This document shows, one piece after another, positions 40,901-43,900 of a stretch of 64,000 nt of DNA. Numbering within the stretch: position 1 is the stretch's first letter; each line of letters opens with the position of its first letter. The position numbers were made by a program. Origin of the DNA: Escherichia coli (GTDB lineage: Bacteria; Pseudomonadota; Gammaproteobacteria; Enterobacterales; Enterobacteriaceae); assembly GCF_017348835.2 (NCBI RefSeq), contig NZ_CP071375.1. The stretch is one strand, 5' to 3'.

Positions 40901-43900
40901 CGCACCATCACGGTATGCCGTGGTGTGGTTACCTTCCTTTTCATCCAGAAACTGGTCGAGGATTTCAGGCGCAGAAGCACCTGCACCAATCAGCGCCAGA
41001 ACGGCAGCCGACAGGCCGTATTTTATTTTTTCGTTCATGGGGATTTATCGATTTCTAATCCCTTGATATGTTAGGTATATAATCCAACACTCATGGTCGC
41101 TCTCATAAACATATCCCTTGAGACGCAGCAGATTACAACAAATGAAGCCATATAAATGAACAGTAAAGAAAGTTTGCGCAGAAGATTTTTACAACTAATG
41201 ACAGAAAACGTTAAATCAGAGTTACTTCTTCTGATGGCAGATAATAACGAAGCAACAAGCAGCATTCTTGCAGACCCTTACGGTAAGATCTCACATAAAA
41301 CGCTGGATATTATTACCACAACATTAACACCGCTGATGCTTCAACGGCTGAAACATAATATCAACGCATGGGTTAATGAAGAATTAAGTCCTCCCTGCTT
41401 ATGGGATTCTCGTTACGCATGTCAGCAAAAAATGCGAATTTTCAACTTACTATCACCAAAGCTCAGGTAGCCATAAAATCCTGCCCTTCATGGCATACAG
41501 GATTTCAATGGAATCACAATGACCAACTCTTGCACAGCTGTATCCCTGACTCCCCGACAACTCAGATTTTCAGTATCTGCTGCTATCTAAAGAGAAAGCG
41601 CACAAATGCAAGGGTCTTTCATCACGTCCTGTTATTGATTGCCTGTGACCTTTTCTTACCTCATGGAACGTTTTTTCAGTTAGAAATATTCATTTTACAA
41701 CCAGTTCGTATTGTTTATTCATCGACTACTCTCCCCGCGCCACCTTACGACGGTCCTCTCTGATTTTGAAATACAGGTTAGTCAGATACGTCAGCAGGCC
41801 AAACAGCAGACTTCCCAGCACACCTATTGCCACCCACTGGGACGGAGAGACTTTGTCCAGCAGCTGCAGTAACCAGTATCCCGTCCCCACCGCTGACGTG
41901 GTGTATGACACACCTGTTGTGATTTTTTCCATCTGATGTATGTCTCCGTCACCGCCGACAGAAAATGAAAGTAAAGAAAAACAAAAAAGCCGCCAGTGTC
42001 ACCCACTGACGGCCAACTCCGGGAGCCGTGATTATGGCATTCAGGCTCTGCTAAAAATGCCAGATAACATTCCGGCCTCCCCTGATTCAGGTTATAAATG
42101 ACACAATATCTTGACAACCCCCGTCACTGTCTGTCAGAAAATATACCGCCAGGCATAAGTATCATGTGAAATCCAACTATCCTTCTGAGCCAGCACCTCT
42201 CCACCGAAAGTCAGTGCTGGCTGTTTTTTTCCTTAATAAAGCATCTGTAACTGAAACAATCCGCATATTGATAATATGAACCGCCCCGGAAATCCTGGAG
42301 ACTAAACTCCCTGAGAAAGAGGTAAACAGGATGACTAAAAATACTCGTTTTTCCCCCGAAGTCCGTCAGCGGGCGATTCGTATGGTTCTGGAAAGTCAGG
42401 ATGAATATGACTCACAGTGGGCGGCAATTTGTTCCATTGCCCCAAAGATTGGCTGTACGCCGGAGACTCTGCGTGTCTGGGTTCGCCAGCATGAGCGGGA
42501 TACCGGGAGTGGTGATGGTGGACTCACCACCGCTGAACGTCAGCGTCTGAAAGAGCTGGAACGTGAAAATCGTGAACTGCGCCGCAGTAACGATATCCTT
42601 CGCCAGGCTTCCGCTTATTTTGCGAAGGCGGAGTTCGACCGCCTCTGGAAAAAATAATGCCACTGCTGGATAAGCTGCGTGAGCAGTACGGGGTCGGACC
42701 GGTATGCAGCGAACTGCATATTGCCCCGTCAACGTATTACCATTGTCAGCAACAGCGACATCATCCGGATAAACGCAGTGCCCGTGCGCAGCACGATGAC
42801 TGGCTGAAGAAAGAGATACAGCGCGTATACGATGAAAATCACCAGGTATACGGTGTGCGTAAAGTCTGGCGTCAGTTGTTACGGGAAGGTATCAGAGTGG
42901 CCAGATGCACTGTGGCACGTCTCATGGCAGTTATGGGACTTGCCGGTGTTCTCCGGGGTAAAAAGGTCCGCACTACCGTCAGCCGGAAAGCCGTTGCCGC
43001 ATGCGACCGCGTAAACCGTCAGTTCGTGGCAGAACGTCCAGACCAGTTGTGGGTGGCTGATTTTACCTGGGTAAGCACATGGCAGGGCTTCGTTTATGTG
43101 GCGTTCATCATTGATGTGTTCGCCGGATACATCGTGGGATGGCAGGTCTCATCATCCATGGAAACAACATTCGTGCTGGATGCACTGGAGCAGGCGTTGT
43201 GGGCCCGTCGGCCGTCCGGCACAATCCATCACAGTGATAAAGGTTCTCAGTATGTATCGCTGGCCTACACGCAGCGGCTTAAGGAAGCCGGATTACTGGC
43301 ATCAACAGGGAGTACTGGCGACTCGTATGACAACGCGATGGCTGAGAGCATCAATGGTCTTTACAAAGCGGAGGTAATACACCGTAAGAGCTGGAAAAAC
43401 CGTGCAGAAGTGGAACTGGCCACACTAACGTGGGTGGACTGGTATAACAATCGACGATTGCTGGAAAGGCTGGGCCATATTCCTCCGGCAGAAGCAGAAA
43501 AAGCTTATTATGCTTCCATCGGAAATAATGATCTGGCAGCCTGAGTTCACAGATAAAACACTCTCCAGGAAACCCGGGGCGGTTCAATATATTGACAGGC
43601 ATCATTGCTGTCTGTGAAAAATAAGTCTCTACAAACATATAAGGCCTTTTAGCCAGCGTCTTCTTTCAGGTCAGTCGCTGGCTCTTTTTTTATTATGCTG
43701 CCGGTGCATTTATCTCCAGCACCAGACTTTCTATCTCAACGCCATACGCTGCATTTTTTGTAACATCCGTCAGCGTCAGCGCATTCAGTCCCAGTGTCAG
43801 ACCGTCTTTTATAACCTGGAATGCCGGGCCAGCCACTCCATTCAGTTTCGGAGTAACCGTGGCACTGCCGGCGGTGAACACCAGCTCCAGCGTCTGCCAG

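What the first reader, a model, noticed from the sequence alone, without database searches (positions are those of the whole stretch)
41039..41725. Antisense 104-codon ORF wedged between holin and endolysin
S and R are separated by 687 bp carrying a plus-strand ORF (41156-41470), opposite to the lysis genes. Its position and size match ydfR of Qin, but I do not recognise the protein. A TATAAT-like element lies upstream at 41073-41080.
Basis: partly seen in the sequence, partly recalled or inferred. Interest (0 to 1): 0.35.

Follow-up and report, generated by a model that had tools for sequence, protein, structure and literature searches.

The report
Antisense accessory gene in lysis cassette
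The gap between a prophage's holin and lysozyme genes holds a real, conserved, backward-facing gene for a small soluble helical protein of unknown function, next to the wreck of a second gene; databases already list it as a hypothetical protein, and it is not related to YdfR.

Summary
R (40505-41038, -) and a P21-type holin (41726-41932, -) are 687 bp apart, and the gap carries a + strand ORF at 41156-41470.

The ORF is a genuine gene:
- It belongs to a small family of ~104-aa proteins (phrog_1853, function unknown).
- Pairwise dN/dS is 0.12-0.39.
- Its length and its first Met are conserved.
- AlphaFold2 gives a confident five-helix model with no informative structural or sequence relative.

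It is not YdfR. Qin ydfR is co-oriented with essQ/rrrQ, is a DUF1327 protein, and shows no similarity to this ORF. The true DUF1327-type gene ("X", phrog_1085) survives in the window only as a decayed remnant on the minus strand (41471-41725).

In relatives the ORF ("Y") always lies antisense to the late operon, convergent with X and beside a lysis gene. X often occurs without Y. Y stays intact where X or the whole lysis cassette has decayed. A different antisense gene can occupy the same slot.

The best reading is an AT-rich, self-contained accessory ("moron"-type) gene expressed from the prophage. Its molecular function is unknown.

The identical protein is already annotated (EDL933 CP-933O; Sakai ECs_1097; WP_000138558.1, with a start I judge 14 codons too late). 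Interest is low to moderate.

The parts
40505..41038 (-). Endolysin R, a phage lysozyme of 177 aa. The Ala/Gly-rich hydrophobic N-terminus (MNEKIKYGLSAAVLALIGAGA...) suggests a signal-anchor-release type like R21; that is inference, not tested here.
   Evidence: PF00959, 7.6e-24; annotated as lysozyme in PE164 and Sakai
41039..41155 (.). 117-bp divergent region between the R start and the Y start. From about 41041 it travels with gene Y into other genomic contexts.
   Evidence: alignments; mean pairwise identity 0.63 across six lineages
41078..41083 (+). Exact TATAAT (-10-like). It is conserved as TATAAT or TACAAT in 6 of 8 diverged loci. There is no acceptable -35 at 16-18 bp.
   Evidence: the consensus scan found no full sigma-70 promoter
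41099..41126 (+). Small hairpin (TCTCA...TGAGA) in the putative 5' leader. It recurs in most window-like homologues but is not energetically significant.
   Evidence: z = +0.39
41142..41159 (+). Five-codon upstream ORF (MKPYK*) whose TGA overlaps the Y start codon (ATGA). Similar mini-ORFs occur in L006, L009 and L014; in L012 a 1-nt insertion fuses it in frame to Y. No clear Shine-Dalgarno sequence precedes either ATG.
41156..41470 (+). Gene Y: a 104-aa soluble all-helical protein of family phrog_1853, under purifying selection. PGAP annotates only 41198-41470 (90 aa, WP_000138558.1).
41476..41505 (+). Hairpin AAAUCCUG...CAGGAUUU just after the Y stop codon. It is a weak terminator candidate at best, because no U-run follows it.
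   Evidence: -13.7 kcal/mol, z = -1.1; not reported by the terminator scan
41471..41725 (-). Decayed remnant of the co-oriented gene X (phrog_1085, with a DUF1327/YdfR-type N-terminus). The start fragment 41722-41690 encodes MNKQYELVVK*. A degenerate C-domain fragment lies at about 41649-41518. The last ~25 codons are deleted.
   Evidence: (tblastn E 7e-5)
41726..41932 (-). Class II (P21-type) holin, 68 aa.
   Evidence: (PF04971, 1.3e-32)

Best explanation
The ORF is a real protein-coding gene (Y). It is a self-contained, AT-rich accessory gene of the 'moron' type, lodged backwards in the late/lysis operon of a lambdoid prophage. SHOWN: it encodes a ~104-aa soluble protein with a confidently predicted five-helix bundle. 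The family is small and found in prophage-type lysis regions; every member that carries a source name is from E. coli or Enterobacteriaceae. The reading frame is under purifying selection. The gene always lies antisense to the late genes and head-to-head with a lysis gene. It arrived next to a co-oriented late gene X (phrog_1085), which in this window has decayed to fragments while Y stayed intact. INFERRED: because Q-dependent late transcription runs the other way, Y must be transcribed from its own promoter in the 117-bp region that travels with it (conserved TATAAT at 41078-41083). It is therefore made independently of lysis, most probably in the lysogen. It then acts as a small cytoplasmic protein-binding factor that serves the prophage-host partnership (for example exclusion of, or protection from, other phages, or host modulation). 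It is not a component of the holin-endolysin-spanin machinery. The molecular target is unknown.
For: Coding and selection:
- Eight diverged loci give dN/dS 0.12-0.39, with pS up to 0.8.
- Full-length conservation includes Met1, whereas the residue PGAP uses as the start is Ile in distant members.
- All other frames within the ORF are closed.

Family:
- phrog_1853, E 3.5e-47.
- Only 20 representatives at E<=1e-3 among 1.8e9 proteins.

Structure:
- AF2 pLDDT 87.5, pTM 0.76, five helices.
- No transmembrane segment (maximum Kyte-Doolittle 19-residue window 0.66) and pI ranging from 4.6 to 9.6 across the family.

Insertion character:
- GC is 37-42% in the gap against 53-56% in S, R and Rz.
- X is directly followed by R in 46 of 80 X-anchored loci and in phage Stx2_95, so Y is an optional insert.
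- In L103 the same slot holds an unrelated antisense gene, phrog_10490.

Autonomy and retention:
- Y keeps its ~115-bp upstream block and TATAAT in other settings: upstream of a porin gene beside a different lysis cassette (L015/L016), next to perC and chromosomal genes (L012/L013), and in an IS-rich region (L014).
- In those loci and in the window, neighbouring phage genes have decayed while Y remains intact.
Against: - No complete sigma-70 promoter was found: a -10 element only, with no -35.
- No clear Shine-Dalgarno sequence and no convincing intrinsic terminator.
- There are no expression data; no paper mentions the gene.
- The L004/L005 clade lacks the TATAAT at the aligned position.
- The window-type allele is nearly clonal (>=99% identical in 622 records), so its intactness here does not by itself prove selection.
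- The function is not identified. Fold and profile searches return only generic helical bundles.
- Long-term linkage with X could mean Y's role is tied to X rather than to the host.
Confidence: 0.6

Rival explanations
1. Y and X form a functional two-gene module. X is a late protein made with the lysis genes. Y, made from the opposite strand, binds or counteracts X as a control or immunity factor. The window then carries an orphan Y, kept like an orphan antitoxin or immunity gene, possibly acting against X-bearing superinfecting phages.
For: - The convergent X/Y pair, with 3' ends overlapping or within about 20 nt, is kept from E. coli Stx phages to distant relatives (X ~35%, Y ~40% identical). 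It holds even where the pair sits upstream of a different holin type rather than between S and R.
- Every non-window Y found inside a lysis cassette has X beside it.
- Divergence of X and Y correlates overall (Spearman 0.86).
- Y survives X's decay.
Against: - X occurs without Y in 49 of 80 loci, and in the deposited phage genome Stx2_95.
- Among the E. coli types X and Y reassort: X is 93% identical while Y is 47% identical between L011 and L119, and the correlation is lost (rho 0.26, p 0.25).
- An AF2 model of a Y-linker-X fusion gave pTM 0.35 and a poorly folded X, so there is no support for docking; the alignment was shallow, so the test is weak.
- No PADLOC or toxin-antitoxin signature.
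- Adjacency alone can explain co-inheritance.
Confidence: 0.15
2. The main role is in cis at the RNA level. Transcription from the Y promoter runs head-on against late transcription and yields RNA complementary to the S-(X)-R message. This would damp leaky or premature holin/endolysin expression by transcriptional interference or antisense pairing, with the protein secondary.
For: - Y is invariably antisense and starts about 120-215 bp from the start of a lysis gene (R or a holin), whatever the cassette type.
- No strong terminator follows Y, so its transcript could run into X and the holin gene.
Against: - Strong purifying selection on the amino-acid sequence and a confident fold show that the protein itself is what selection preserves.
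- Y persists intact where no lysis gene remains nearby (L012-L014).
- Q-modified late transcription is highly processive (established lambda biology), so interference should be weak.
- No structured-RNA signal or Rfam match.
Confidence: 0.12
3. Y is the counterpart of Qin YdfR, or another known lysis accessory protein (antiholin, spanin, lysis regulator).
For: Same slot (between a class II holin and a lysozyme) and the same size, 104 against 103 aa.
Against: - Opposite orientation.
- No BLASTP alignment.
- YdfR matches DUF1327 at 1.1e-53, whereas Y matches no Pfam family.
- The cassette's own DUF1327-type gene is the minus-strand remnant.
- Y has no membrane segment or lipobox.
Confidence: 0.01
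4. The ORF is a chance open frame or a dead remnant with no function.
For: - Weak translation-initiation signals, and PGAP and the older annotations disagree on the start.
- The gene is embedded in a decaying region that contains the X pseudogene and a nearby IS element.
Against: dN/dS of 0.12-0.39, a length conserved at 104-107 aa over deep divergence, a confident predicted fold, and intactness in several independent contexts.
Confidence: 0.02

Closest known systems
phrog_1853 / Stx2-converting phage 86 gp06 (YP_794053.1) / O157 Sakai ECs_1097 / EDL933 'unknown protein encoded within prophage CP-933O' / WP_000138558.1
   Same: Same protein family. ECs_1097 has the same coordinates as the 90-aa WP_000138558.1 form, and the EDL933 entry is the identical 104-aa sequence. 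All are antisense and next to R in a P21-type lysis cassette.
   Different: Nothing is known about any of them; all are annotated as hypothetical. RefSeq/PGAP starts the protein 14 codons too late, giving 90 aa. In Stx2-86 the neighbouring gene X is intact; in the window it is a remnant.
YdfR of cryptic prophage Qin (E. coli K-12 b1555; Pfam DUF1327)
   Same: Occupies the slot between a class II holin (essQ) and a lysozyme (rrrQ), and is ~103 aa.
   Different: It is co-oriented and tightly packed with the lysis genes, overlapping the rrrQ start by 4 bp. It belongs to DUF1327 and has no sequence similarity to Y. Its relative in the window is the decayed minus-strand gene X, not the plus-strand ORF.
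Classical lambdoid 'morons' transcribed against the late operon: lambda/DLP12 bor and PA-2 lc / DLP12 nmpC porin (established literature knowledge; orientation of borD and nmpC seen)
   Same: A single extra gene, of different base composition, inserted between late genes and oriented against Q-dependent transcription, so that it can be expressed from the prophage. One Y homologue even sits immediately upstream of such a porin gene.
   Different: bor and lc encode envelope proteins with known lysogenic-conversion roles. Y is a soluble cytoplasmic helical protein with no known role. Its promoter and terminator are not demonstrated.
phrog_10490 antisense gene in the same slot (locus L103)
   Same: Same position and orientation: antisense, just upstream of R and downstream of X.
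   Different: The protein is unrelated (hhalign probability 0.3%; different PHROG). This shows the slot is a cargo site, not that the two genes share a function.

Membership tests
phrog_1853 (uncharacterised phage protein family) | Significant full-length match to the family HMM | tested here: met
   E 3.5e-47, residues 1-102 on profile positions 57-158 of 159. Distant homologues from L022 and L019 also match.
YdfR / DUF1327 (PF07041) | Match to the Pfam DUF1327 model or sequence similarity to YdfR | tested here: not met
   No Pfam hit at E<=1. No BLASTP alignment at E<=100. YdfR itself scores 1.1e-53.
YdfR / DUF1327 (PF07041) | Co-oriented with holin and endolysin as part of the late transcript | tested here: not met
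   Y is on the + strand while S and R are on the - strand. Qin ydfR lies on the same strand as essQ and rrrQ.
Moron (extra transcription unit in a lambdoid late operon; Hendrix/Juhala concept, from general knowledge) | Present between two genes that are adjacent in related phages | tested here: met
   X is directly followed by R in 46 of 80 X-anchored loci and in phage Stx2_95. Y is inserted between them in 31 loci.
Moron | Base composition different from the flanking phage genes | tested here: met
   GC 0.365-0.425 across 41000-41799 against 0.53-0.555 in R, the holin and Rz. Y gene GC is 0.38.
Moron | Own promoter and terminator flanking the gene | tested here: inconclusive
   A conserved exact TATAAT but no -35, and the consensus scan found none. 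The downstream hairpin has no U-run.
Moron | Expressed from the repressed prophage | not testable with these tools
   No transcriptome or ribosome-profiling data are accessible, and no paper mentions the gene.
Membrane lysis proteins (holin, antiholin, spanin) | Transmembrane segment, signal peptide or lipobox | tested here: not met
   Maximum 19-residue Kyte-Doolittle mean is 0.66, GRAVY is -0.33, and the model is an all-helical soluble bundle.
Known anti-phage defence or toxin-antitoxin proteins | Match to a PADLOC-DB, Pfam or NCBIfam model | tested here: not met
   No PADLOC match for Y or X at E<=1. No Pfam or NCBIfam match for Y.

The most novel reading that the evidence does not exclude
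X (late, co-oriented) and Y (antisense) are a previously unrecognised, anciently linked convergent gene pair of lysis cassettes. In this reading the prophage-expressed Y protein restrains or gives immunity to the X protein, or to lysis by X-bearing phages. The orphan Y in this widespread E. coli prophage would then be a retained anti-lysis or exclusion factor.
Probability: 0.12. Interest if true: 0.6.

Novelty: new member of a known kind. Interest (0 to 1): 0.25.

Why it matters
This gene sits in about 12% of complete E. coli genomes, including O157:H7, O103, O111 and other STEC lineages, inside the lysis cassette next to pchA-type virulence regulators and at the position where Stx phages control toxin release.

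If it is expressed in lysogens it is one more uncharacterised prophage cargo gene with a possible role in phage-phage or phage-host interplay.

Three practical corrections follow:
- The RefSeq start codon is probably 14 codons too late.
- The 'intergenic' 255 bp next to the holin is a ydfR-family pseudogene.
- The S-R junction of P21-type cassettes is a variable cargo slot, so its contents should not be assumed to be lysis functions.

Tried and rejected
- **Homology to YdfR:** rejected.
- **Function by sequence:** Pfam, NCBIfam, PADLOC and a PDB profile search all came back empty. PHROGs gave only an unknown-function family.
- **X-Y complex:** an AF2 model of a Y-(GGGGS)6-X fusion with a 10-row paired alignment gave pTM 0.35 and X pLDDT below 70, so it is uninformative or negative. 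No usable model of X was obtained, so X's fold could not be searched.
- **X profile against PDB:** nothing.
- **RNA elements:** no Rfam match, and no significant folds for the leader, the 3' hairpin or the R leader.
- **Promoter and terminator scans** in the window and in L004, L019 and L022: no consensus sigma-70 promoter for Y.
- **DNA search of the phage collection** with the 687-bp gap: no match.
- **A Y relative in K-12 DLP12 or Qin:** none.
- **Literature searches** by accession, locus tag, family and context: nothing on this gene.
- **Second TATATAATCC in the window at 11363:** unrelated context, taken as chance.
- **Not run:** scans of genome contigs and metagenome contigs. They are costly, and the family's taxonomic range would not change the verdict.

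Full report
**1. The observation**

The window carries a lambdoid-prophage lysis cassette on the minus strand:
- A 68-aa P21-type class II holin, 41726-41932 (PF04971, 1.3e-32).
- A 177-aa phage lysozyme, 40505-41038 (PF00959, 7.6e-24).
- An Rz spanin gene, 39702-40226.

The holin stop and the lysozyme start are 687 bp apart (41039-41725). That gap contains a plus-strand ATG ORF of 104 codons at 41156-41470.

**2. Is the ORF a gene?**

Yes.
- It matches PHROG family phrog_1853 (unknown function) at E 3.5e-47.
- Database searches recover a small family of 104-107-aa proteins. There are 16 clusters by word-seeded search and only 20 representatives at E<=1e-3 in an exhaustive profile search of 1.8 billion proteins.
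- Twelve members 49-79% identical to the window protein align end to end, including the first Met. The Met that PGAP uses as the start (window 41198, a 90-aa product, WP_000138558.1) is Ile in the distant members. The 104-aa form is therefore the likely product.
- Codon-level comparison of eight loci gives dN/dS of 0.12-0.39, with synonymous sites near saturation.
- Within the ORF, no other frame on either strand stays open for more than 40 codons.
- AlphaFold2 with this small alignment gives a confident five-helix bundle (pLDDT 87.5, pTM 0.76).
- The protein has no membrane segment, and its pI varies from 4.6 to 9.6 across the family. It is a soluble protein, and a conserved nucleic-acid-binding charge is unlikely.

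**3. What it is not**

Qin ydfR (b1555, 103 aa) does sit between essQ and rrrQ. However, it lies on the same strand as those genes, 4 nt after essQ and overlapping rrrQ by 4 bp. It is a DUF1327 protein (1.1e-53), and BLASTP finds no alignment with the window ORF. The ORF has no match in any of the following:
- Pfam, NCBIfam or PADLOC.
- A PDB profile search.
- Rfam, for the surrounding DNA.

**4. What else is in the gap**

In related prophages the order along the late transcript is: holin, then a co-oriented gene X, then the antisense gene Y, then lysozyme. This holds for Stx2-converting phage 86, the Stx2_12E129 phages and several genome and metagenome contigs.

X belongs to phrog_1085. It has a conserved C-terminal domain (invariant H...GRCM...LQ.AAEIE...PPFK...W.PG..LK) and a variable N-terminus that in some members is a DUF1327/YdfR domain.

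The window keeps only wreckage of X on the minus strand:
- An ATG three bases after the holin stop (41722) opens MNKQYELVVK followed by a stop. This is the typical DUF1327 N-terminus, and DNA homology to intact X genes ends at 41687.
- Positions 41649-41518 retain a degenerate trace of the C-domain: KDPCICALSL*IAADTENLSC against KRIGRCMGYLQVTAEIEALAC (tblastn E 7e-5).
- The last ~25 codons are deleted.

The 687 bp therefore break down as a 117-bp divergent control region, the 315-bp gene Y, and a 255-bp X pseudogene.

**5. Context across relatives**

- In Y-anchored loci from IMG/VR, the window arrangement (Y intact, X a remnant) is the commonest. Every other Y that lies in a lysis cassette has X convergent with it, with 3' ends overlapping or within about 20 nt.
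- Distant members keep the same convergent pair but place it upstream of the holin, beside holins of other families (P0020, P0023 and P0033; Y ~40% and X ~35% identical).
- X does not need Y. Of 80 X-anchored loci, 49 lack Y, and 46 of those have X directly followed by R, as in phage Stx2_95.
- Among the E. coli types X and Y reassort. L011 and L119 have X 93% identical but Y only 47% identical. The divergences correlate only across deep clades.
- One locus type (L103) carries an unrelated antisense gene (phrog_10490) in the same place.
- Y also occurs, intact and with its ~115-bp upstream block, in three other settings: next to a phage porin gene beside a different lysis cassette (L015/L016), next to perC and chromosomal genes in a prophage remnant (L012/L013), and in an IS-rich region (L014). 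Each retains only scraps of R or X.
- The gap is AT-rich: GC is 0.37-0.42 against 0.53-0.56 in the flanking lysis genes.

**6. Signals**

- The TATAAT is conserved as TATAAT or TACAAT in six of eight diverged loci. There is no acceptable -35, and the consensus scan reports no promoter.
- The L004/L005 clade lacks the TATAAT at that aligned position. Instead it has a GC-rich hairpin plus T-run upstream of Y and a good GAGGA Shine-Dalgarno sequence.
- Window-type loci have no clear Shine-Dalgarno sequence. They do have a five-codon upstream ORF whose stop overlaps the Y start (41142-41159). L006, L009 and L014 have a similar mini-ORF, and in L012 it is fused in frame to Y.
- The hairpin after the stop codon (41476-41505) is weak and lacks a U-run.

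Sequence signals for independent expression are therefore suggestive, not conclusive.

**7. Interpretation**

The best-supported reading is that Y is an autonomous accessory gene of the moron type. It is an optional, compositionally foreign, single-gene insert oriented against Q-dependent late transcription. That orientation means it can only be expressed from its own promoter, most plausibly in the lysogen. It is retained when neighbouring phage genes decay.

I commit to a lysis-independent, protein-level role in the prophage-host or phage-phage relationship (confidence about 0.6 for the class of explanation; the molecular target is unknown). The rivals are:
- A functional X-Y pair, with Y as antagonist or immunity factor for X (0.15). 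Ancient linkage supports it. Frequent X-only phages, reassortment, and an uninformative fusion model (pTM 0.35) weaken it.
- A mainly cis-acting antisense or interference role on S/R expression (0.12). Protein-level selection and Y's persistence away from lysis genes weaken it.
- A YdfR-like lysis accessory (0.01) or a spurious ORF (0.02). Both are effectively excluded.

**8. Novelty and provenance**

The window segment 39000-45600 is 100% identical to E. coli PE164. The local gene order there is Q, tRNAs, nanS-p-type esterase, IS3-family element, holin, Y, R, Rz, perC-family gene, terminase.

The identical 104-aa protein is annotated in EDL933 as 'unknown protein encoded within prophage CP-933O'. 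In Sakai prophage Sp4 the gene is ECs_1097, annotated in the 90-aa form.

No paper in the searchable library mentions it. It is an already annotated but uncharacterised gene: a new member of a known kind (late-region moron), not a new kind of system. Interest is 0.25.

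Noticed in passing
window 41471-41725 (-): The 'non-coding' 255 bp between Y and the holin is a decayed ydfR-family/phrog_1085 gene. 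It starts MNKQYELVVK* three bases after the holin stop, carries a degenerate C-domain fragment and has lost its 3' end. Current annotations show nothing here.
   Followed up: yes
window 41156 vs 41198: RefSeq/PGAP annotates the gene as 90 aa starting at 41198 (WP_000138558.1). Family conservation supports the 104-aa start at 41156, because the downstream Met is Ile in distant members.
   Followed up: yes
window 41142-41159 (+): A five-codon mini-ORF (MKPYK*) overlaps the Y start codon in an ATGA arrangement. L006, L009 and L014 have a similar mini-ORF, and in L012 it is fused in frame to Y. This may reflect translational coupling in the absence of a Shine-Dalgarno sequence.
   Followed up: partly
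window 41988-42014 (-); also L004 ~3895-3922 (+), L019 1338-1361 (+), L022 ~4929-4952 (+): A strong terminator-like hairpin with a T-run (GGCCGTCAGTGGGTGACACTGGCGGCT TTTTTGTTTT) lies just upstream of the holin on the late strand. Hairpins with the same CGYCAGYG...CACTGGCG arms lie upstream of Y, on Y's strand, in the L004, L019 and L022 loci. Whether this is a shared terminator or a module-boundary element is unexplained.
   Followed up: partly
window 42331-43544 (+): An IS3-family element (IS629/IS1203-like: orfA 42331-42657, orfB 42657-43544) is inserted between the holin and the SASA/nanS-p-type esterase gene (43693-45543, -). It separates the lysis genes from their upstream late region. 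In strain PV15-279 a copy instead truncates R.
   Followed up: partly
window 38922-39236 (-): A PerC/Pch-family regulator gene (104 aa; pchA in Sakai Sp4) lies just downstream of Rz. Another Y homologue (L012/L013) also sits beside a perC gene.
   Followed up: partly
L184 (Sakai NC_002695.2, Sp4) 23366-26376: In O157 Sakai Sp4 the block pchA-Rz-R-Y-holin is inverted relative to the Q/tRNA/esterase and terminase genes and is flanked by IS629 and ISEc8. This looks like an IS-associated inversion that uncouples the lysis genes from late transcription.
   Followed up: no
L103 3670-4252: The slot between X and R can instead hold a 75-aa DUF1327-like co-oriented ORF plus an unrelated antisense gene (116-codon ORF; residues 22-116 match the 95-position phrog_10490 profile). 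The R-proximal junction is therefore a hot spot for antisense cargo.
   Followed up: partly
L015 4001-5823; L016 1608-3430: A Y homologue (72% identical) lies 395 bp upstream of, and co-oriented with, a 370-aa phage porin gene (lc/nmpC-like). The pair sits between Q and a holin_8/holin_3_7/GH108 lysis cassette. Co-transcription is possible but was not examined.
   Followed up: no
L011 / L019 (X-Y junctions): In several loci the 3' ends of the convergent X and Y genes overlap by 21-33 nt. The two proteins' C-termini are then encoded on opposite strands of the same DNA, leaving no room for a terminator between them.
   Followed up: partly
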